Below the pieces are notes generated by a model that was not told where the DNA came from, ran no database searches, and worked only from the letters and a program-made list of their open reading frames with translations. Position numbers and translations under genes: made by a program. Below, piece by piece: positions 31,532-40,758 of a stretch of 64,000 nt of DNA (position 1 is its first letter; every line of letters starts with the position of its first letter). This DNA comes from Escherichia phage vB_EcoM_G37-3. Location of the stretch: the sequence record MK327941.1, one strand, 5' to 3'.

Positions 31532-32691
31532 AGATATTTCCCGAATCGGTTGTAGTCGTCGTCTGTTAAATCGGTATTAACCTGAGATACCAGATACATA
31601 ATCTCTACTTCTTGCGCTGCATTCTGTACTTCGTCAGAGTTCAACCATTTACGCATCCACGGTAACGGATGACGACGAACACTAAACGGGCTTTTCAGTC
31701 CGGCAGCACGCATACGGGAATCTGCCAGGTATTCTACATAGGTTTTCAGAATTTCCGGTGACAGGTTAGGAATTGCCCCCATTGCGAATAGGTGGTCTAC
31801 CCATTCTTTTTCTTGCTCGACAACATCCAGAAAGATTTTCGTTGCTTCACCTTCAAGTTCTTCCGCAATCTGTTTCCACTCATCACCATCAACCCCCGTT
31901 TGCCATTGACGAATAATGTATTGTGTGCCTTTTAAGTGAAGTTGTTCATCACGCGCAATAAATTTCATGATCTTCGCGTTACCTTCCAGTAAACCACGTT
32001 CGGCAAAGCTGAAAGTACATGCAAAGGACACATAAAAACGAATTGCTTCCAGTGCATTGACGCAGTGTGCACACAGATAAATCGAAGCCATCAGATCTCG
32101 TTTTGTATCTTCAAAAAATCTTCTTGCATCATCTAATGCTGTCTGGTCGTCTCGTTCTTCCCAATAGCGGAGATCTTCTTTTGCATTCTCATACTTACGA
32201 ATCCAATAAAGAACATCATCATAATATTTCCCGATAGATTCCGCTCGCTTCATGATAGCAGGGTTATCGATGATCTGGTCGAACTCACTAGCCGGATCAA
32301 TGAAACAGTTACGCATAATGTGTGTATAGCTTCGGCTATGAATCGTTTCGCTGAATGTCCATGTTTGCAACCATGTATCGAGAGTTGGATCAGATACAAT
32401 TGGACCAAATACACGGGCTGGCGCTCTGCCTTGAATCGAATCTAGCAAAGTTTGATAACGTAAGTTCTCGGTGAAGAAACGCTTTTCAACATCGCTCATA
32501 TTCAGATATTGAATGCGGTCAGTTGCAAGTGAAATCTCTTCTGGACGCCAGAAAAATGACAACTGCTTCTCGATCAACTCTTCAAATACTTGATGACGCT
32601 GAATATCATAACGAGCAATCCCTAAATCACTACCAAAAAACATCGGTTCGGTCATAATATCAACATGTTCACGATTAAATACGCTCATCAC
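31528..32691 (-). CDS. nrdB: ribonucleotide reductase small subunit
   Basis: 387 aa uninterrupted; synteny. Confidence 0.9.
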   Translation of the reverse strand: MMSVFNREHVDIMTEPMFFGSDLGIARYDIQRHQVFEELIEKQLSFFWRPEEISLATDRIQYLNMSDVEKRFFTENLRYQTLLDSIQGRAPARVFGPIVSDPTLDTWLQTWTFSETIHSRSYTHIMRNCFIDPASEFDQIIDNPAIMKRAESIGKYYDDVLYWIRKYENAKEDLRYWEERDDQTALDDARRFFEDTKRDLMASIYLCAHCVNALEAIRFYVSFACTFSFAERGLLEGNAKIMKFIARDEQLHLKGTQYIIRQWQTGVDGDEWKQIAEELEGEATKIFLDVVEQEKEWVDHLFAMGAIPNLSPEILKTYVEYLADSRMRAAGLKSPFSVRRHPLPWMRKWLNSDEVQNAAQEVEIMYLVSQVNTDLTDDDYNRFGKYL

Positions 32692-33230
32692 TATTCTCCA
32701 TCAATTTTGTTTATATTGTAACCCATGTTGCCTTTTTCTATTTCTCTCAACGCAACTGAATTAAACGCTCTTGCCGCATCTTGTTCGCTATCAAATCTCC
32801 CTATATGAACACTCTTTCCTTGTATATTAATATGAACTAGCCATCTATTTGTGTACTTACACCAACTTACCCCGTTATATTTTGATGATGCACCTTTAAA
32901 TTTAGTTCTGTTTCGATTGTTGACAGAATAATCAGTACCTCGTAAATTTTCTATATGATTGTTCAGCTTGTTTCGGTCGATGTGATCTATAACTTTAGGC
33001 TTATGCCCGTGAAACATATGATAAATCACATGATGTATTAACTTCTTTCTATTGTCTACTGTTAGTTGAAGATATCCCCCATTATGTGGACTTCCAACCT
33101 CATCACCAACTTTAACTTTATTGCTTGTTGAAACCTTTCTGAAAAGTTTACCATCTTCGTATTTAAATAGATAATGATACCTTTCGTAAAGTATTCGGTC
33201 CTCTTCCGTATAATGTATTACCTCATACAT
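32691..33230 (-). CDS. HNH + AP2-domain homing endonuclease (mobE-like position)
   Basis: 179 aa; IDHIDRNKLNN (HNH) and YNGVSWCK...HIGRFDSEQDAARAFN (AP2-like). Confidence 0.7.
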   Translation of the reverse strand: MYEVIHYTEEDRILYERYHYLFKYEDGKLFRKVSTSNKVKVGDEVGSPHNGGYLQLTVDNRKKLIHHVIYHMFHGHKPKVIDHIDRNKLNNHIENLRGTDYSVNNRNRTKFKGASSKYNGVSWCKYTNRWLVHINIQGKSVHIGRFDSEQDAARAFNSVALREIEKGNMGYNINKIDGE

Positions 33231-33606
33231 AATATTTTACTCACTTTTTAACACAAAAGAACTTAGTATTTCTGTTAACTTCGCTATCCTGCTGCAATTC
33301 CTGCACAGCTTCAAAACAATTTTGATGTGATGAAAACTCTACGCTGGTAACAGTTCCTTTATTATATACGCCTACGCTAACGGAAAGCAATAACCATACA
33401 GTAGCCATTATCCTACAACCTCAAAGCATTTATCATCAGGAAGAATAGCCCATTCTACGCCATATTCATCCTCAACGTAGTAGCAAGCCCCATCATGTCG
33501 AGCATCATATACATCACCGACAACAAAGCTATCAGCTAGCTAAAAATCTACAGCAACACATTTTAATTTGGTCATAATAAAATCCTCACTTGTTTTTGAT
33601 GGTTGT

Positions 33607-33635
33607 ATTATAGCGGGGATTTCTCCCCGCGTCAA
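33607..33635 (-). promoter_or_regulatory. early promoter cassette (PeSL-like) downstream of nrdA
   Basis: TTGACG-CGGGGAGAAATCCCCGC-TATAAT. Confidence 0.5.
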
Positions 33636-33643
33636 CAGTTATT

Positions 33644-35887
33644 TTACAGCTTACAGGATGAACACTCGCTAGCGTCTTCCGTACCATCAGCACCATCACG
33701 CACGTTAGCGTAATACAGTGTCTTGAGGCCGTAATATTGAGCAAACAGCATATCATCTAACACATCAGCAATATCGACTTTACCAGTCTTATAAGTGCTT
33801 GGATCATAGGATGTATTGGAACTAATCGCCTGATCTACAAACTTCTGCATGATCGCTGCCAGTGTCAGATAGGGCTTGTTACCTTTCTTGATCAGTGTCC
33901 AAAGCAGGTCAATAACATCAGCATTATTCTCTACGTTCGGAATAACCTGATTAAATTGCCCTTCTTTCGATCCTTTAACCGATACAATCCCGCGAGGCGG
34001 TTCAATACCGTTTGTGCTGTTAGATACCTGAGAAGATGACTCACAAGGCATCAGCGCCGAAAGCGTACTGTTACGAATGCCATATTTTTTCAGGTCTTCG
34101 CGCAGTTCTTCCCAATCCATCTCATACACCGGATCAACCAGTTCATCTACTGTCTTTTTGTACCAGTCGATAGGAAGTTCACCGCGACCATAGCGTGTTT
34201 CGTGCATCAGTTCGCAAGCACCCTTCTCTTTAGCCAGTCGCACACTAGCCTTAATCAGAGCATATTGCAAGCGTTCAAACGTTTTATGCGTAAACTCGTT
34301 AGCGTCTTCATATGTGAAGAAATTATCTGCTAGATATGATGCAAAGTTAGTCACGCCAACGCCCAGAGATCGACGTTTTTTGGCTGTCAGAGCTTGTTCT
34401 ACAGGATAATCCTGATAATCTAACAGGTTGTCAAGTGCACGCACCATAACCATAGCAATGCGTTCTACTTCTTCCATATTTTCGATATCGAAATTACCTA
34501 AAACATATGCTGCCAAAGTACATAGGCTAATTTCTGAATCATCACGACCCATCGGTTTTGTTGGCAGAGCAATTTCACAACACAGGTTAGATTGTTTAAT
34601 CGGTGCTACATTACGAATAAACGCCCCGTGATTGTTCATGTTGTCTGTGAACGCTGGATAGATTCGACCAGTGTTAAAACGTTCAATTGCCACCGCTAAA
34701 AACAGGTCTTCGGCTTTAACACGAGTTTTACGAACACTCGGATCTTTTTCCAGTTTTTCGTAAAGCTGACGGAAACCTTCCTCATCTCGGAAGTACAGAT
34801 CCCACAACAAGCCACCTGCAACATCTGGACTAAACAGAGTAATGTAATCCCGTTTAAGGAATCGCTCTACCATCAGGTTATTAATCTGTACGCCGTAATC
34901 AAGATGACGAATGCGGTTATCTTCTACCCCCTTATTGTTCTTTAACACAATCAGACTTTCAAACTCTAAATGCCACATTGGGTAATAGAGAGTCGCCGCC
35001 CCGCCACGAATACCGCCTTGTGAGCATGACTTAACGGCAGTCTGAAAATGTTTCCAGAATGGGATAACTCCAGTATGACGAACTTCACCATGCCCGATCT
35101 TAGATCCTTCCGCGCGAATCATGCCAGCGTTGATACCGATACCAGCACGCTTGCTAATATACTTGATGATTGCATTTGCGGTTTCATTAATACCCTGCAA
35201 TGAGTCATCACTTTCAATCACCACACACGAACTAAATTGGCGTGTTGGGGTACGCACACCTGCCATAATCGGAGTAGGCAGAGAGATTTGCTTATTCGCA
35301 ACCGCATTATAAAAATCAATCACATGTTCAAGTCGATTTTCTGTCTCTTCTTGATGCAAGCACATACCGATCAGCATATACGCAAATTGCGGTGTTTCGA
35401 TGATTTTCTTAGTGCTGCGATCCTGAACAAGATATTTCTCTTTTAACTGCATCGCACCAGCATAGGTCATTTTAAAATCAAGTTTATGGTCGATGAATTT
35501 CTCCAGATATTCCACTTCTTCACGGGAATACTTTTGCAGAATTTCACGATCATATTTTCCGGTTGCAATATTACGCTCAATATGGCTGTAAAAATCAATC
35601 GGTTGGAATTGACCGTATACTGATTTGCGAAGCGCGAACATTGCAAGGTTACTTGCTACATATTGATAATCAGGTGTTTCTACAGTAATGTTATCTGCTG
35701 CGACCTTAATCAATACTTTCTGGATATCATTGGTAGACATACCTTCTGTCAGAAGTGGTTCAACCATATCAAACAATTCATATGGATCAACGTTATGACC
35801 TTCGGCTGCCGCTTCCAGAATTTTCATTACTTTTTCTTTTTCAAACGGAACAGTCAGACCGGAAGACTTAACAACATTTTTAATCAT
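33644..35887 (-). CDS. nrdA: ribonucleotide reductase large subunit
   Basis: 747 aa; ATP-cone N-terminus, C-terminal CSSCKL-type tail. Confidence 0.9.
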   Translation of the reverse strand: MIKNVVKSSGLTVPFEKEKVMKILEAAAEGHNVDPYELFDMVEPLLTEGMSTNDIQKVLIKVAADNITVETPDYQYVASNLAMFALRKSVYGQFQPIDFYSHIERNIATGKYDREILQKYSREEVEYLEKFIDHKLDFKMTYAGAMQLKEKYLVQDRSTKKIIETPQFAYMLIGMCLHQEETENRLEHVIDFYNAVANKQISLPTPIMAGVRTPTRQFSSCVVIESDDSLQGINETANAIIKYISKRAGIGINAGMIRAEGSKIGHGEVRHTGVIPFWKHFQTAVKSCSQGGIRGGAATLYYPMWHLEFESLIVLKNNKGVEDNRIRHLDYGVQINNLMVERFLKRDYITLFSPDVAGGLLWDLYFRDEEGFRQLYEKLEKDPSVRKTRVKAEDLFLAVAIERFNTGRIYPAFTDNMNNHGAFIRNVAPIKQSNLCCEIALPTKPMGRDDSEISLCTLAAYVLGNFDIENMEEVERIAMVMVRALDNLLDYQDYPVEQALTAKKRRSLGVGVTNFASYLADNFFTYEDANEFTHKTFERLQYALIKASVRLAKEKGACELMHETRYGRGELPIDWYKKTVDELVDPVYEMDWEELREDLKKYGIRNSTLSALMPCESSSQVSNSTNGIEPPRGIVSVKGSKEGQFNQVIPNVENNADVIDLLWTLIKKGNKPYLTLAAIMQKFVDQAISSNTSYDPSTYKTGKVDIADVLDDMLFAQYYGLKTLYYANVRDGADGTEDASECSSCKL

Positions 35888-35956
35888 ATTACCTCACTTC
35901 ATATTTTAGCAGGAACAAGTTTTATCCTCCATATTGGGGGCTTTCGCCCCCTTTGT

Positions 35957-37177
35957 TTATACTGCCATTTGAGCGGTGATCGCTGGATGGCTTTGATAGT
36001 TGTGAATTTTAAAATCTTTCGGAGTCTTTGTCAATACCTCATCTAAAGATTTAAATTCCGGCAACTCAATTGTTGGTTTATCAAACGGAACACGGCTTAA
36101 CTGTTCCATAACTTGATCAAAATGGTTTTTGTAAATGTGAGTATCTCCACCAGAGAAAATCAGTTCTCCTACCTCAAGATCACACATTTTCGCTATGATG
36201 TGAGTTAACAGCGCATAGCTGGCGACGTTAAAGGGCAAGCCCAAAAAGCAGTCTACGCTTCGCTGAAACCACATACAAGACAGTTTACCTTCATTGACGT
36301 AGAATTGTACGAACGGATGACATACACCCAATACAGCATTATGTGTTCCTTGTACGTTCCATGAGTCAATGATGATACGTCGATCCGTTGGATTGTTTTT
36401 AATTTGTTCAATCACGTTTTGTAACTGGTCTTCCCAAATCTTCGGGCGATAGACATATTCTTCATCGTCTTTAGTGCTTGATGTGTCTACGTCCATACTA
36501 ACAAACATCGTGGTATCCGGTGCTATAATATCCCCACCCAGATAATCACTATCAAGCAGATAACCGAAATAACCATCATCTACCCATTCCTGGAATCCCC
36601 ACAAGCAATATGCATCATTAACAAAATTAGATTGAGTCTTCCAGTGGTCTGCTACCAGAATATAATCAAACTCTTCATAACGCATACCACGCCAGATAGC
36701 ACATAAACGGTCTTCTGTGTCATTGGTTGGCGTAAAGTCTTCTACCCACGGGTGCTTAAATGTATGTGTATATTTGCTCTTAACGCGCTTAATTTTGATT
36801 TCACCATGTGGATGAATCGGTTTGCGTCGCCACGCCATACCATACATATTGCCGACATTATAACCATTGAATCGCAAGGGATTCTTTTCTTTCATATCAA
36901 GACAGTTGCCGCGCCAAATATCAAAGGCTTCCTCGTCAAACTTGCCGCGTGTAATTTCCTGTAAGCGACGGCGGTCAAGTGATCCATCCATAAACCATAG
37001 CAATTCGCCAATTACAGAGGCTGTAGCCATCTTTTTAGTGGTCAGTAATGGGAAACCCTTGCTTAAATCAATTCGCATCTCTGCGCCGAATTTAGAGAGC
37101 GTACCTACCCCCGTGCGGTCTTCACGAGGACAGCCATTATCAAGAACATCACGCAATAGTTTCAAATATTCTTTCAT
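35957..37177 (-). CDS. td: thymidylate synthase with about 120-aa internal insertion
   Basis: 406 aa; DRTGVGT, DRRIIIDSWN, CHPFVQFYV, FLGLPFNVASYALL; insertion between WRRK and DQLQNV. Confidence 0.85.
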   Translation of the reverse strand: MKEYLKLLRDVLDNGCPREDRTGVGTLSKFGAEMRIDLSKGFPLLTTKKMATASVIGELLWFMDGSLDRRRLQEITRGKFDEEAFDIWRGNCLDMKEKNPLRFNGYNVGNMYGMAWRRKPIHPHGEIKIKRVKSKYTHTFKHPWVEDFTPTNDTEDRLCAIWRGMRYEEFDYILVADHWKTQSNFVNDAYCLWGFQEWVDDGYFGYLLDSDYLGGDIIAPDTTMFVSMDVDTSSTKDDEEYVYRPKIWEDQLQNVIEQIKNNPTDRRIIIDSWNVQGTHNAVLGVCHPFVQFYVNEGKLSCMWFQRSVDCFLGLPFNVASYALLTHIIAKMCDLEVGELIFSGGDTHIYKNHFDQVMEQLSRVPFDKPTIELPEFKSLDEVLTKTPKDFKIHNYQSHPAITAQMAV

Positions 37178-37418
37178 CCCACATCACCTTTTTCTTATTG
37201 ATTGCTTTCTTACGCAGTTTTGCTACTGTCTCGTCAATGTCTATAAAGATAACACCACGGTCGAATATAGTAGCAGGTCTTGATATATCGCTATTTTCTT
37301 GCACAGGAAGCCATGATGCGCTCGCTTCATCATAGAGATATTGTAAACCGTAATAATCTACGGCTACTGCGTAGTTTTCACTGGTAGCTGACCATAATTG
37401 AATAATACCGACTTTCAT
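37149..37418 (-). CDS. hypothetical protein (89 aa from MKVGIIQ)
   Basis: ORF between frd and td; start uncertain. Confidence 0.45.
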   Translation of the reverse strand: MKVGIIQLWSATSENYAVAVDYYGLQYLYDEASASWLPVQENSDISRPATIFDRGVIFIDIDETVAKLRKKAINKKKVMWDERIFETIA

Positions 37419-37511
37419 TATTGTTCCCGTCCGCAATGTAAACACCGACTACCAGCAAACATCAAAGATTCACCACAATGTTTGCACTCATAATCTGTCA
37501 GAATTTTCATG

Positions 37512-38093
37512 TTACGCCTTCTTACGTTCTAAAATTTGTTCGCTGATCAGGTAATCATCAAGGAAGTAATTATGTTCTTCTTTTGTTGCAAAGTCAAAAT
37601 ATAATTCCTGAATCATTTCCTTAGAGATGCCAACATCATATTCAAACGGATCATTAATTCCTGGTCGTTGAACATACGTTAACACAATACGGTCCGCAAA
37701 GTCAACTGCTTTTTCAATCAGGGAAGGTCCGCCAATAACGCTTACCAAACCTTGCAATTTCTCTATGACTTCTAATAATTCCTTCAATCCACCATCATTA
37801 GTAATCGCGGTATACACATCTGGTTGGTCGCCGTTTTTTGCTTTCGGTGCTGGCTTACTGGTATCGGTGCTAACAACCACATTCACACGACCTTCCAGTG
37901 CTTTAGGGAGACTTTCAAAGGTATTACGTCCCATTACAACCGCCGCAAGATCAACATCTCCCATAGTGCGCATTTTAAAGTTTTCCATGTCCTTTTTGAT
38001 TGGACGTCCCCACGGTAAACCGCCTTTAAAACCAAAAGCCCAATTTTCATCTGACATTTTAGTATCACCAATCGCAAATACACATTGAATCAT
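37512..38093 (-). CDS. frd: dihydrofolate reductase
   Basis: 193 aa; GGLPWG, MGRNTFESLP motifs. Confidence 0.85.
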   Translation of the reverse strand: MIQCVFAIGDTKMSDENWAFGFKGGLPWGRPIKKDMENFKMRTMGDVDLAAVVMGRNTFESLPKALEGRVNVVVSTDTSKPAPKAKNGDQPDVYTAITNDGGLKELLEVIEKLQGLVSVIGGPSLIEKAVDFADRIVLTYVQRPGINDPFEYDVGISKEMIQELYFDFATKEEHNYFLDDYLISEQILERKKA

Positions 38094-38108
38094 AATATAA
38101 ATCTCCCA

Positions 38109-38471
38109 TCAAATCAGTTTGAAATAGTTTTCGTTTACATTTTCTTCTGTGATTGCTGTCTTAAATTCTTGACCGTTATCCGGTGTGATGAAATAACGGT
38201 CAGAATAATCACGAAAACGTTTTAAGTGAGATACCCCAACATTAACACCATTTTCCCAAAAACGAAAGGTAATCATTTTTGGTTCATATCGATAGTCGCT
38301 GGTTAACACAGTACCATCACCGCGACGGGCTTCATAAACCGTAATACATTCACGATTAGCGGCTTTAAGGCATTCTTCAATAGTGCCGCATGAGATAATA
38401 CTTACTTTTTCATCTACGATTTGTTCTACAGTCCACATAATATAATCCTCTCTTTGTTTCGATATGTGCAT
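38109..38471 (-). CDS. hypothetical protein (120 aa)
   Basis: ORF with promoter cassette at 38461..38488. Confidence 0.6.
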   Translation of the reverse strand: MHISKQREDYIMWTVEQIVDEKVSIISCGTIEECLKAANRECITVYEARRGDGTVLTSDYRYEPKMITFRFWENGVNVGVSHLKRFRDYSDRYFITPDNGQEFKTAITEENVNENYFKLI

Positions 38472-38488
38472 TATACACTATTGCGTTA
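38461..38488 (-). promoter_or_regulatory. early promoter cassette
   Basis: TTGACA, 16-nt spacer, TATAAT. Confidence 0.5.
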
Positions 38489-39709
38489 CGCTGTCAACTC
38501 TTTTTCAAAAGATTTTACGATATACATGATGGTGCTCAATTCGGACGGCGCTACTGTCTCTGTGTAGCCATCCGGCATATCTTCTTTCGAGATATAGGAA
38601 GTTTTACCTTTCATTGCTTCCTTGATTTTGTTCTCTAATTCTAAGATCTTTTGACCGTCTTGTAAAGTCAATTCATAAAAGATCTCATGATCGAACTTTG
38701 AAACACGAGATTGGTTTCTCATGCGCTCATGTGTTTCTTTGTTTGTTATTCCAAATTTCACGCCAACAAAGGAATCATTGTTGGTTAATTTCTGTATATA
38801 AAGAGTTCCTGTCTTTAATGCCTGATAACCATGCTTAGAACACAACGGGCAGCGTGTTCCGCGATTAACAAAATTATCAATAGTTACATCCCATTCATGG
38901 TTACGTTCGCATGTCAGAAGTATTCTTGTTAATGCACCTTTCCACTTTCCTGAAATCCCAATAAATTTTAGTCTGTTGGTTTCGCATATTTTTTTAATTT
39001 GTTTTAATCGGTCACTTTTTGTTATTGGTGCTGTTCCGCTACATTTGCGACACCGACGACCTAGTTTGAACTTATCATAACTTTGTTCGTAAATGTGATT
39101 ATTAGGACACTCAAATTTAAGTTTAGTTTTTGTTCCTCTCCATTCCCCAATTATACCCAAAAATTTATAATCTCCTTTATTTTCATTTATATAAGATAAG
39201 GAATCTTCTTTATCATGCATCTTGCCCCCGTTACATAAAGGACATCTTGTTTTTTGATGAATGAAATCTGTATATGTTGGTTGGTATGTGTGTCCGTTTG
39301 TACAGTTCATAATGAGTCTTGTTCTGCTATTTTTATACTCCCCACCAACAAAACCAACAAATACATCGTTTGTTTCTTGTTTTATTCTTTCTATCACATT
39401 GTTTGGGTTTAATCTTTGAGAATCAACCACACATTTCTTACACGAAACTTTTTTCCTGATATTTGCTAGAGTTGATGTGTATTCATGCTTGTTATTACAT
39501 AATATAAGAGCTTTTGTTTTGAGACCAGACCATTCTCCAACAAACCCCATGAAAGAATAACCAACTTCCAAACATGAATTTTTTACAACATTTTCCCAAT
39601 AGAAGGGAGTTTTCGTGTTTCCTTTTATTTCTATACGAATCTCGTGTGCTTGACGTACCAACATATTTTTATCCTCCGTTGTTTCGATGATTGTATTATA
39701 CATTACCAC
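38486..39709 (-). CDS. protein with four tandem Cys-containing repeats and C-terminal GIY-YIG / T5orf172-like domain (407 aa)
   Basis: four roughly 45-aa repeats (FxGxxGEWxGxKTK...CxNxHxY, CPLC / CRKC) then LYIQKL...VKFGITNK...DGYTETV. Confidence 0.55.
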   Translation of the reverse strand: MVMYNTIIETTEDKNMLVRQAHEIRIEIKGNTKTPFYWENVVKNSCLEVGYSFMGFVGEWSGLKTKALILCNNKHEYTSTLANIRKKVSCKKCVVDSQRLNPNNVIERIKQETNDVFVGFVGGEYKNSRTRLIMNCTNGHTYQPTYTDFIHQKTRCPLCNGGKMHDKEDSLSYINENKGDYKFLGIIGEWRGTKTKLKFECPNNHIYEQSYDKFKLGRRCRKCSGTAPITKSDRLKQIKKICETNRLKFIGISGKWKGALTRILLTCERNHEWDVTIDNFVNRGTRCPLCSKHGYQALKTGTLYIQKLTNNDSFVGVKFGITNKETHERMRNQSRVSKFDHEIFYELTLQDGQKILELENKIKEAMKGKTSYISKEDMPDGYTETVAPSELSTIMYIVKSFEKELTA

Positions 39710-39723
39710 ATCAGCATGTCAAT
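39695..39723 (-). promoter_or_regulatory. early promoter cassette
   Basis: TTGACA, 17-nt spacer, TATAAT. Confidence 0.5.
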
Positions 39724-39752
39724 ACATTTTCATAAAATTTTAGGCAATAAAA

Positions 39753-39775
39753 AAGCCTTCCCGAAGGAAGGCTTT
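39753..39775. terminator. bidirectional rho-independent terminator after gene 32
   Basis: AAGCCTTCC-CGAA-GGAAGGCTT flanked by A run and T run. Confidence 0.6.
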
Positions 39776-39783
39776 AAAATTCA

Positions 39784-40758
39784 TTACATCCCTAACAGAG
39801 CGTCAAGATCATCCAGATCAGAAGCGGAGGAAGTACCGCCACCCAGGTCCAGAGATGCCATCAGATCATCAGCGGAAGAATCTAACGCCGTGCTAGCTGC
39901 GTTAATACCAACTACAGTGCTAACCGCGTTAATACCAGCATCGAATGCATTCATCTGTGCGTCAAAATCGTCAAGCTGGCTGTTAATCGCTGCCGCAGCA
40001 CTGGAAGCCGCAGCACCAGCTACCATAGACACACCCATAGTTTTCTTAAATTTGGTTTCCAGTTCATCGAACGGTTTAAACTGGCTAGGCGCTACAATCT
40101 CACTCAGGTCAACCATGTTTTCCATCAGATATTTCTGATATGCTTCGTCTTCAATTTTCGGAAGCTGTGATTGCTGCATGAAACGAGAATCATCATAGTT
40201 CTGGTGTTTATCAACCTTCTTAGCTTTCAGGAGGAAGTTAGCACCGGAGAACACACAAGTTACATCTACCGGAACTTCGCCCATATCGGTATTCACGTTC
40301 ACCATTGCAACGATCTTATCATAAATTTTCTGACCGAAGCGGAATTTGAATACCTTACCTTCATTTTCTGGTGCTTGAGGATCTTTCAGTACCAGAATAT
40401 TTGCGTAGTAAGAGGCTTTACGCTTAATCAGTTGCCATTCGGTTTTATCGGTATTGTACAGGTCTTTTTCGTTAATATATTTGCACACAGGGCAAGAATC
40501 AAAATCACCGTGGGTGCTTGAGCAGTTTTCCCAATACCATTTACCATTAACTTTGAAGGAATGGTTTACCAGTTTCACAATCGGCAGACCGTCTTCTGTC
40601 TTAGACGGCAGGAAGCGAATCAGGGCTTCACCGTTACCTGCTGCATCAGTCTTAATCTTCCACTCTTTCGGATCTTCTTTGGAGAAACCGTTGCCACCTT
40701 TCAGTGCGGCCAGTTGAGCTTGCAGTTTGGAAGAATCTTGGCGTTTAAACATATTCAC
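39784..40758 (-). CDS. 32: single-stranded DNA-binding protein gp32
   Basis: 324 aa; [19 protein letters not shown] zinc site, acidic C-terminus. Confidence 0.9.

What the first reader, a model, noticed from the sequence alone, without database searches (positions are those of the whole stretch)
36445..36820. Thymidylate synthase has a roughly 120-residue in-frame insertion and no intron
td encodes 406 aa against about 286 aa in T4 and 264 aa in E. coli. The extra residues (about 120-245, PIHPHGEIKIKRVKSKYTH...VDTSSTKDDEEYVYRPK) sit between the WRRK and DQLQNVIEQIKNNPTDRRIII segments, the site of the variable small domain in some thymidylate synthases. It lacks intein junction residues and is not at the T4 td intron position. 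td and nrdB also appear uninterrupted by group I introns.
Basis: partly seen in the sequence, partly recalled or inferred. Interest (0 to 1): 0.4.

Follow-up and report, generated by a model that had tools for sequence, protein, structure and literature searches.

The report
Decayed endonuclease-like module inside thymidylate synthase
The phage's thymidylate synthase carries a 131-residue, translated, non-splicing insertion that is the cut-down relic of a homing-endonuclease-like module, a module that in other phages sits full-length and apparently mobile in the same loop of the enzyme.

The parts
35957..37177 (-). td gene, 406-aa thymidylate synthase carrying the insertion
   Evidence: ORF list. 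Pfam PF00303 E 1.2e-84 in two stretches. PDB TS chains E ~7e-69. All catalytic residues are conserved: R21, E58, W88, Y112, R266/R267, C286, H287, Q305, R306, S307, D309, N317, H347, Y349.
36824..37177 (-). TS N-terminal core, aa 1-118, ending in the conserved YGMAWR motif
   Evidence: Aligns to E. coli TS 1-99/100. dN/dS 0.034-0.037 among Krischvirus relatives.
36431..36823 (-). 131-aa in-frame insertion (aa 119-249): relic of a homing-endonuclease-like module
   Evidence: No TS homology. A profile of long inserts built without this sequence hits it at E 9.4e-17. PHROG 2081 'HNH endonuclease' matches only weakly, E 0.068. AF2 10-residue block pLDDT means over the insert are 81-98. dN/dS 0.25. 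Net charge -11, pI 4.7.
36788..36826 (-). Ascending strand of the beta-hairpin stalk (aa 118-130, RKPIHPHGEIKIK)
   Evidence: DSSP strand E118-130 in the AF2 model. The PxxPHG..I.R flank is shared by TS inserts but absent from free-standing relatives.
36578..36721 (-). Retained helical core of the module (aa 153-200: LCAIWRGM..., HWKTQSNFVND, LWGFQEWV)
   Evidence: Helices H153-171, H177-180, H182-189 and H195-200. They are collinear with W..M..RCY / RW.NF.NF / GFQE.V of the long inserts and free-standing proteins.
36497..36562 (-). Degenerate beta-hairpin that corresponds to the conserved (D/E)KD...YSPxTCxF motif (aa 206-227: YLLDSDYLGGDIIAPDTTMFV)
   Evidence: Strands E206-209 and E224-227. 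K158, D159, Y168 and S169 (P0145 numbering) are invariant and N181 nearly invariant in 36 free-standing relatives. Here the motif is DSD, and the following helix with the conserved Asn is deleted.
36428..36457 (-). Descending strand of the stalk (aa 241-250, EYVYRPKIWED) rejoining the TS core
   Evidence: Strand E241-250. The V.RP.I flank is conserved in TS inserts.
35957..36430 (-). TS C-terminal core, aa 250-406 plus stop, with catalytic Cys286
   Evidence: Aligns to E. coli 110-264. dN/dS 0.029 when the mosaic alleles are excluded.

Best explanation
The 131-residue insert is the decayed, in-frame remnant of a homing-endonuclease-like module that entered td without any splicing element.

Proposed history:
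- The intact module is about 240 aa. It has an N-terminal small beta-domain, a helical core ending in a beta-beta-alpha unit with a conserved (D/E)KD...YSPxTCxF...N motif, and a short C-terminal beta/alpha part.
- It is collinear with free-standing phage proteins that carry AP2, NUMOD or HTH DNA-binding tails.
- In many phages it sits in-frame at the tip of a surface hairpin loop of TS, directly after the conserved YGxxWR motif. It is translated as part of the enzyme. The loop tolerates a domain, so no intron or intein is needed.
- In at least one jumbo phage lineage the module moved together with flanking td sequence into a previously empty allele, which fits endonuclease-driven gene conversion.

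State in the ancestor of Krischvirus and its metagenomic relatives:
- The element became fixed and then decayed. Two internal in-frame deletions removed the N-terminal beta-domain and the C-terminal part, including the helix of the beta-beta-alpha unit.
- The DKD motif degenerated (DSD here) and the domain changed from basic to strongly acidic.
- What remains is a compact folded knob on a two-stranded stalk. It is translated, does not splice and leaves a fully intact TS active site.
- It is kept mainly because imprecise deletion would destroy an essential enzyme. Possibly the occupied site also escapes cleavage by related endonucleases.

Shown: the insert's existence, translation-level constraint, homology to the long module and to free-standing proteins, loss of motifs and domains, the charge switch, and the filled/empty polymorphism with flanking replacement in UE-S1.

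Inferred: nuclease activity of the intact module, homing as the transfer mechanism, inactivity and lack of new function in the relic, and target-site immunity.
For: Existence and translation:
- The TS match is split at aa 118/250.
- The insert is present in all 58 close relatives.
- Among 9 non-mosaic Krischvirus alleles the insert has 18 synonymous-only and 16 amino-acid-changing variable codons. The binomial p against neutrality is 1.3e-5, dN/dS is 0.25 versus 0.03 in the core, and Fisher p against the core is 6e-4.
- An in-frame 4-codon indel is tolerated.
- The AF2 model has mean pLDDT 93.8 and pTM 0.92, with the insert as stalk plus helices plus hairpin.

Not an intron or intein:
- There are no Rfam hits.
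- Apart from one sub-threshold hit (Cas3-like_C, E 0.16), Pfam finds only TS.

Homology series:
- TS proteins of 401-613 aa carry inserts of 126-283 aa at the same site with shared flanks.
- The long-insert profile hits the window insert at E 9.4e-17.
- The UE-S1 insert hits PHROG 'HNH endonuclease' families at 4e-32, 7e-25 and 8e-21.

Free-standing relatives:
- About 55 proteins of 137-337 aa were found, with AP2, I-HmuI NUMOD-like, HTH or DUF723 modules.
- They are collinear with the long inserts.
- BFVD fold matches include proteins named homing endonuclease.
- The family has 26,800 representatives at E<=1e-3, and 77 of the 147 new top representatives are TS.

Mobility:
- Four long-insert TSs have cores closer to insert-less TSs than to other insert-bearing ones, for example P0017-P0099 at 86%.
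- P0318 carries the module in a different TS loop.
- UE-S1 versus 121Q: the outer td parts are 95-98% identical in nucleotides, while the central cassette (27 codons, the module, then ~90 codons) is only 47-63% identical. UE-S1 is the only one of 48 related records that covers at least 80% of the query, so it alone matches the whole filled allele.

Decay:
- The window lacks the N- and C-terminal parts and the Asn helix, and the DKD motif reads DSD.
- All 8 short inserts have pI 4.7-6.1, whereas all 24 long inserts and 10 free-standing proteins have pI 7.1-9.4.
Against: - The nuclease nature of the module is not established. No Pfam, NCBIfam or PDB sequence match exists.
- Foldseek against PDB finds nothing.
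- hhalign of the free-standing family against the window's own canonical HNH_3+AP2 protein aligns only the AP2 part.
- The conserved motif has Lys where HNH enzymes have the catalytic His.
- The 'HNH' labels of PHROGs and BFVD are annotations, not experiments.
- The UE-S1 cassette replacement could result from ordinary homologous recombination.
- Within Krischvirus the insert is fixed, so no mobility can be shown for this copy.
- dN/dS 0.25, retention down to 62% core identity and a very conserved DAYCLWGFQEWVD stretch also fit an acquired function.
- The AF2 model has no experimental support, and I could not inspect its coordinates to check clearance from the dimer interface and active site.
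Confidence: 0.68

Rival explanations
1. Exapted domain. The insert has the same mobile-element origin, but the remnant now does something useful for the phage. It could be an acidic protein-protein interaction knob that docks TS to partners such as DHFR, RNR or the dNTP-synthesising and replication machinery. It could also mimic nucleic acid to regulate or shield something.
For: - Purifying selection acts on the insert (dN/dS 0.25, p 1.3e-5 vs neutrality).
- It is retained in a clade reaching 62% core identity.
- The DAYCLWGFQEWVD stretch is strongly conserved in the short-insert relatives P0001-P0006.
- The fold is confident and rigidly placed (pTM 0.92).
- All short inserts show the same switch to an acidic surface.
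Against: - Selection is about 8-fold weaker than on the core.
- The conserved residues are mostly aromatic or hydrophobic, as expected for fold maintenance alone.
- Short inserts differ in length (126-162 aa) and carry in-frame indels.
- No partner or motif is identifiable.
- Any in-frame insert in an essential enzyme is constrained simply to stay folded.
Confidence: 0.22
2. The short insert is still an active site-specific endonuclease domain that drives its own homing.
For: It is homologous to a module whose relatives are annotated as homing endonucleases. A mosaic patch begins at the insert's 3' junction in JSE and KFS-EC.
Against: - The DKD motif and the Asn helix are lost.
- The N-terminal beta-domain and C-terminal part are lost.
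- Net charge is -11.
- The insert is fixed in all 58 relatives, so there is no empty target to invade.
Confidence: 0.03
3. Native TS elaboration. The insert is an expansion of the enzyme's own variable 'small domain' (as in L. casei TS), unrelated to mobile elements.
For: TS is known to vary in length in this general region. Many phage TSs have 27-32 residues in this loop.
Against: - The L. casei insert is in a different loop.
- The insert is homologous to free-standing non-TS proteins with AP2 or NUMOD tails.
- The same module occurs in another TS loop.
- There is a filled/empty polymorphism within one genus.
Confidence: 0.03
4. Spliced element (group I intron read through in frame, or an intein), or a sequencing or assembly artefact.
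For: td is a classic host of introns (T4) and inteins (actinophage thymidylate synthases, bioRxiv 10.1101/2025.01.02.630785).
Against: - There is no Rfam hit even at E<=10 or anywhere in the window.
- There is no Hint or intein Pfam domain and no junction residues (sequence).
- Selection acts at the codon level and the domain is predicted to fold.
- The insert is present in 58 independently sequenced genomes.
Confidence: 0.02

Closest known systems
ShiLan domain: non-splicing homing insertion in a mycobacteriophage DNA methylase (Arsenault, Gosselin & Gogarten 2025, PMC11855218)
   Same: It is an insertion read through in frame with the host gene. It has no intron or intein features, is predicted to loop out of the host protein on a hairpin, has a disjoint distribution suggesting homing, and is associated with an HNH-type endonuclease.
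   Different: In ShiLan the endonuclease is encoded out of frame and the in-frame product is only a loop. Here the endonuclease-like module is itself in frame and becomes a folded domain of the enzyme. No alternative-frame ORF of >=40 aa lies within nt 36431-36741, the bulk of the insert. The host gene here (td) sits in the core nucleotide-metabolism cluster, and the window's copy is a decayed relic.
Inteins with homing endonuclease domains (including HNH-type inteins in phage proteins)
   Same: They are in-frame insertions at conserved sites of conserved enzymes, translated with the host protein. Their endonuclease domains are prone to decay into 'mini' forms, and thymidylate synthases are reported intein hosts in actinophages.
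   Different: There is no Hint splicing domain, no Cys/Ser N-junction and no His-Asn/Cys-Ser-Thr C-junction (sequence). The insert must stay in the mature protein.
T4 td group I intron with I-TevI
   Same: The host gene is the same. A mobile endonuclease-associated element sits next to highly conserved td codons, and flanking exon co-conversion is the expected footprint.
   Different: That is an RNA-splicing element with a GIY-YIG endonuclease at a different site (window aa ~313 equivalent). Here there is no ribozyme and the element is protein-coding in frame.
Free-standing HNH-AP2 homing endonucleases of T4-like phages (MobE type)
   Same: Free-standing relatives of the module have the same layout, a putative catalytic core directly upstream of an AP2 domain. 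The window itself has a canonical HNH_3+AP2 gene between nrdA and nrdB.
   Different: The module's core is not detectably similar in sequence to HNH_3. It has DKD instead of DH and an extra N-terminal beta-domain. In td it is embedded in the target protein, not placed between genes.
L. casei-type small-domain insert and eukaryotic TS inserts
   Same: These are length variation in surface loops around the conserved YGxQWR motif, tolerated by the TS fold.
   Different: The L. casei 50-aa insert is on the other side of the motif. Those inserts are helical TS-specific segments with no relatives outside TS.
R.PacI (PDB 3M7K), minimal HNH restriction endonuclease
   Different: Sequence identity is 9%. 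The Zn-binding Cys4 motifs were not examined. Foldseek does not recover the match.

Membership tests
Thymidylate synthase ThyA (PF00303) | Significant match to the TS family profile and to solved TS structures over the whole core | tested here: met
   PF00303 E 1.2e-84. E. coli TS chains E ~7e-69, two stretches covering E. coli 1-~107 and 110-264.
Thymidylate synthase ThyA (PF00303) | Catalytic Cys and substrate-binding residues (E. coli R21, E58, Y94, R126, R127, C146, H147, R166, S167, D169, N177, H207, Y209) | tested here: met
   All are conserved in the window protein. N317 (= N177) indicates dUMP specificity and not dCMP specificity.
Thymidylate synthase ThyA (PF00303) | dTMP synthase activity as a homodimer | not testable with these tools
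   Only inferred from dN/dS 0.03 on the core.
Intein | Hint splicing domain | tested here: not met
   No intein or Hint Pfam family at E<=1 for the protein or for the insert alone.
Intein | Junction residues: Cys/Ser at the N-terminus; His-Asn at the C-terminus followed by Cys/Ser/Thr | tested here: not met
   The junctions read WRR|KPIH and PKIWE|DQL.
Group I intron | Match to the group I intron covariance model / ribozyme core | tested here: not met
   No match at E<=10 in 33000-40000 and none at gathering score in the whole window.
Group I intron | Sequence not constrained as codons in the host frame | tested here: not met
   The frame is open, there is an excess of synonymous change (p 1.3e-5) and the insert has protein homologues.
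HNH (beta-beta-alpha-metal) homing endonuclease | beta-beta-alpha-metal fold | tested here: inconclusive
HNH (beta-beta-alpha-metal) homing endonuclease | Catalytic His (general base) and Asn/His metal ligand; match to HNH profiles | tested here: not met
   The window has LDSD and no Asn helix. Even intact modules have DKD...N, with no Pfam HNH hit and no hhalign match to HNH_3.
HNH (beta-beta-alpha-metal) homing endonuclease | Modular DNA-binding tails (AP2, NUMOD, HTH) | tested here: not met
   These are present in free-standing relatives but absent from the window's insert, which is acidic.
HNH (beta-beta-alpha-metal) homing endonuclease | Site-specific cleavage of the empty allele and super-Mendelian inheritance | not testable with these tools
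   There is only indirect evidence for the full-length element: the filled/empty polymorphism with flank replacement in UE-S1 vs 121Q and the patchy distribution.
ShiLan-type non-splicing homing insertion | Insertion read through in frame, no splicing signals, looped out of the host protein | tested here: met
ShiLan-type non-splicing homing insertion | Endonuclease hidden in an alternative reading frame of the insertion | tested here: not met
   No alternative-frame ORF of >=40 aa lies within 36431-36741 on either strand. Two short ORFs (41 and 70 aa) overlap only its 5' edge.
L. casei-type TS small-domain insert | Insertion between the IWDEW segment and the GDLGxVYGxQWR motif | tested here: not met
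   In alignment A6 the window's insert follows the WR of that motif.

The most novel reading that the evidence does not exclude
Plain in-frame domain insertion may be a third, splicing-free way, beside introns and inteins, for homing endonucleases to colonise an essential gene. In this reading the endonuclease-like module is expressed as a loop domain of thymidylate synthase. The obligate TS dimer could even supply the pairing needed for double-strand cleavage. The module spreads with co-converted td flanks and then decays in place, and the Krischvirus insert is the late stage of that cycle. TS genes would then record the whole life cycle: free-standing gene, active full-length insert, truncated acidic relic.
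Probability: 0.4. Interest if true: 0.75.

Novelty: new variant of a known kind. Interest (0 to 1): 0.55.

Why it matters
Homing endonucleases are thought to survive inside essential genes only by riding on self-splicing introns or inteins, or else by sitting between genes. Here an endonuclease-like module is simply translated as an extra domain in a permissive loop of thymidylate synthase, in dozens of 50%-identity clusters of phage TS. One genus (Asteriusvirus) shows a filled/empty polymorphism and another (Krischvirus) a fixed, decayed relic. If the intact module is an active nuclease, this widens the known repertoire of selfish-element strategies beyond the single ShiLan-type precedent. 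It would also give a natural example of domain-insertion tolerance in a drug-target enzyme, and it explains why RB49-like phages have a 406-aa TS that annotation pipelines pass over. It flags mis-annotation as well: whole TS genes are labelled 'HNH endonuclease' in Vibrio phages D181, D148 and D69.

Tried and rejected
1. The big-database word-index search with the 131-aa insert alone returned nothing. This was a sensitivity quirk, because the full protein and the profile worked.
2. Pfam, NCBIfam and PDB sequence searches with the insert and with the long-insert profile gave no family.
3. Foldseek against PDB gave no significant hit, and the afdb50 library was unavailable.
4. hhalign of the free-standing family against the window's canonical HNH_3+AP2 protein aligned only AP2, so sequence-level HNH homology is not shown.
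5. The filled/empty DNA comparison P0017/P0099 had flanks only 75-78% identical, too diverged to show a homing footprint. UE-S1/121Q was informative instead.
6. The genomic context of two free-standing relatives was uninformative beyond 'small lone phage genes'.
7. Ten large non-TS carriers of the module have no Pfam domains, so I could not tell whether other enzymes are also invaded.
8. Literature searches found no description of the RB49/Krischvirus td insert.
9. I considered and rejected an intron, an intein, an artefact, translational bypass (393 nt in frame under codon selection) and the L. casei-type small domain.

Full report
**1. Observation**

The minus-strand ORF 35957..37177 encodes a 406-aa protein. 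Pfam PF00303 (E 1.2e-84) and solved TS structures (E ~7e-69) match it in two stretches, residues 1-~117 and 250-406, which correspond to E. coli TS 1-~107 and 110-264. Alignment with E. coli, L. casei and T4 TS fixes the insert at aa 119-249, nt 36431-36823. I recalled the L. casei and T4 sequences from memory and verified them as identical to PDB 1lca and 1tis. The insert lies between E. coli R99 and D110. All catalytic and substrate-binding residues are intact, including C286 and N317. The window is a Krischvirus (RB49-like) phage, 99.5% identical in td to phage kvi. All 58 phage records whose td is >=90% identical carry the insert at 91-100% identity. It is therefore not an assembly error.

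**2. Not an intron or an intein; it is translated**

- No Rfam family matches the region at E<=10, and none matches anywhere in the window at gathering score.
- nrdB is one continuous ORF.
- Apart from one sub-threshold hit (Cas3-like_C, E 0.16), Pfam finds only TS, and the junctions (WRR|KPIH ... PKIWE|DQL) lack intein residues.
- The T4 intron position (after T4 codon ~183, from memory) maps to window aa 313.
- Among 11 Krischvirus td genes the insert has dN/dS 0.25 against 0.03-0.04 for the core.
- Among the 9 non-mosaic alleles there are 18 synonymous-only and 16 amino-acid-changing variable codons. The binomial p against neutrality is 1.3e-5, and selection is relaxed relative to the core (Fisher p 6e-4).
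- A 4-codon in-frame indel (SEYN) segregates inside the insert.
- AlphaFold2 with a 56-sequence alignment gives mean pLDDT 93.8 and pTM 0.92.
- In that model the insert is a two-stranded stalk (118-130 and 241-250) bearing helices 153-171, 177-189 and 195-200 and a hairpin at 206-209/224-227.

**3. The site**

The L. casei 50-residue small-domain insert lies upstream of GDLGxVYGxQWR. The window's insert lies downstream of that motif. In many phage TSs this loop already holds 27-32 residues. In the closest filled/empty pair the first part of the insert aligns weakly with the first half of the native loop, which suggests insertion at the tip of an existing hairpin.

**4. What the insert is**

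- tblastn with the insert finds distant copies (31-34% identity) at the same site in the 517-aa TS of jumbo phages UE-S1, KP13-7 and phiKp_21. It also finds them in 477-aa TS-like genes of Vibrio phages D181, D148 and D69, which are annotated 'HNH endonuclease'.
- The protein database gives a graded series of TSs of 401-613 aa with inserts of 126-283 aa. All sit in this loop and share the flanks PxxPHG..I.R and V.RP.I.
- The UE-S1 insert matches PHROG families labelled HNH endonuclease (E 4e-32, 7e-25, 8e-21), whereas the window insert matches only weakly (E 0.068).
- A profile of 12 long inserts, built without the window sequence, hits the window's td at E 9.4e-17 and nothing else in the window.
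- The same profile finds about 55 free-standing proteins of 137-337 aa without TS. These carry AP2, I-HmuI NUMOD-like, HTH or DUF723 modules.
- The long inserts are collinear with those proteins from an N-terminal beta-domain, through W..M..RCY and RW.NF.NF, to (D/E)KD...YSPxTCxF...N.
- An exhaustive search finds 26,800 representatives at E<=1e-3. Of the 147 new top representatives, 77 are TSs carrying the module, nearly all in the same loop.

**5. Is it a nuclease?**

The long module folds confidently when modelled alone (pLDDT 89.4). The conserved motif lies on a beta-beta-alpha unit. The evidence is mixed.

For a nuclease:
- BFVD matches include phage proteins named homing endonuclease.

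Against, or not supporting:
- Foldseek against PDB is negative.
- No Pfam, NCBIfam or PDB sequence match exists.
- hhalign against the window's own canonical HNH_3+AP2 gene aligns only the AP2 part.
- The motif has Lys where HNH enzymes have His.

I therefore call the module 'homing-endonuclease-like'. The architecture and the distribution fit, but activity is untested.

**6. Mobility of the intact element**

- In a neighbour-joining tree of TS cores, four long-insert TSs nest among insert-less ones. Their cores are closer to empty alleles than to any other filled allele, for example P0017-P0099 at 86% against 77%.
- P0318 carries the module in the other variable loop, between IWDAW and DLGPVYGQMWR.
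- UE-S1 is the only one of 48 related jumbo-phage records that covers at least 80% of the query, so it alone matches the whole filled allele.
- Its congeners (121Q, PBECO4 and others) have a 309-aa TS at the same locus.
- Between UE-S1 and 121Q, td codons 1-91 and the last ~75 codons are 95-98% identical in nucleotides.
- The central cassette is only 47-63% identical. It comprises 27 codons upstream of the module, the module itself and about 90 codons downstream.
- This is the footprint expected of gene conversion from a diverged filled donor with co-conversion of flanks. Ordinary recombination cannot be excluded.

**7. State of the window's copy**

Relative to the intact module, the window's copy shows these losses:
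- It lacks the N-terminal beta-domain.
- It lacks the C-terminal beta/alpha part.
- It lacks the helix bearing the conserved Asn.
- The DKD motif reads DSD, and TQK, SCD, SCK or SLV in its relatives.

Every short insert (126-162 aa) is acidic (pI 4.7-6.1; the window's has net charge -11). Every long insert and every free-standing protein is basic (pI 7.1-9.4). The short form is retained in a clade reaching 62% core identity, with insert identity of 36-54%. The simplest reading is a dead relic, kept folded because it sits inside an essential enzyme. An acquired function is the main rival (about 0.2).

**8. Comparison with known systems**

The closest precedent is the ShiLan domain, a non-splicing in-frame insertion in a phage methylase with an HNH hidden out of frame (PMC11855218). 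Here the module is itself in frame, and no alternative-frame ORF of >=40 aa lies within nt 36431-36741, the bulk of the insert. Inteins, the T4 td intron with I-TevI, MobE-type free-standing genes and the L. casei small domain each share some features but fail defining tests (see the membership table). I found no paper describing the Krischvirus td insert.

**9. Verdict**

The feature is a new variant of a known kind: a homing-endonuclease-associated insertion, in a splicing-free in-frame form, seen here at a decayed stage. Interest is 0.55. The window's copy alone is a relic, but it points to a widespread and apparently undescribed way for endonuclease-like modules to live inside thymidylate synthase.

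Noticed in passing
window 32691-33230 (-): A 179-aa ORF lies between nrdA and nrdB with canonical HNH_3 (E 1e-9) and AP2 (E 4e-7) domains. It is a free-standing homing-endonuclease-type gene in the position mobE occupies in T4.
   Followed up: partly
window 38486-39709 (-): A 407-aa ORF upstream of frd has four CapR-homology repeats (E 1e-29) and a treble-clef zinc finger (DUF4379). The C-terminal ~110 aa (GTLYIQKL...VKFGIT) are unassigned. It may be the ORF that an older paper lists as RB49ORF239c with a weak DUF723 hit; I did not check the correspondence.
   Followed up: partly
L006 (JSE) and L013 (KFS-EC), td codons ~251-350; equivalent to window ~36130-36430: In two Krischvirus genomes a ~300-nt patch beginning within a few codons of the insert's 3' junction is replaced by a diverged allele (50-88% nt identity against 95-100% elsewhere). 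The patch spans the catalytic Cys and the position equivalent to the T4 td intron site, and resembles the P0003-P0005 alleles.
   Followed up: partly
window ~36640-36660 (aa ~172-176); L004, L009, L010, L012, L013: A 4-codon in-frame indel (SEYN) segregates inside the insert among Krischvirus genomes, at the place where the long module has its NPRxNHxSY segment.
   Followed up: yes
L002 1955-3508 (UE-S1) vs L018 756-1685 (121Q): Within the genus Asteriusvirus one genome has the 517-aa module-bearing TS and its relatives have a 309-aa TS. The whole central third of td differs (47-63% nt identity) while the ends are 95-98% identical.
   Followed up: yes
P0318 (545 aa, metagenomic): The same module, here with an HTH/NUMOD-like tail, is inserted in frame in the other variable TS loop, upstream of DLGPVYGQMWR. 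This TS also has a long native loop at the usual site.
   Followed up: partly
L001 2638-4071 (Vibrio phage D181; also D148, D69): A 477-aa gene annotated 'HNH endonuclease' is a divergent TS-family protein (PF00303 E 2e-47) with a 195-aa module in the loop. Its core is unusually diverged (about 35% identical to other TSs), so its substrate may differ.
   Followed up: partly
literature, PMC13390438; td of phage SAP = hit H98: Krischvirus phage SAP is reported to have glucosylated hydroxymethyl-type cytosines. Its 99.96%-identical relative TB34 has plain C, and no 5hmC-synthase homologue is known in the genus. The insert-bearing td is a TS-superfamily gene of these phages, but it keeps the dUMP-specific Asn (N317), so I see no link.
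   Followed up: no
window 37149-37445 (-): A 98-aa ORF overlaps the td start by 29 nt and is annotated as a hypothetical protein in RB49 (RB49ORF236c). It has only a weak, sub-threshold Pfam hit to a glycosyltransferase DXD region (E 0.037).
   Followed up: no
P0193, P0199, P0202, P0259 (661-724 aa) and others: Large non-TS proteins carry one to six copies of the module and have no Pfam domains at all. Whether these are other invaded host genes or multi-module nucleases is unknown.
   Followed up: partly
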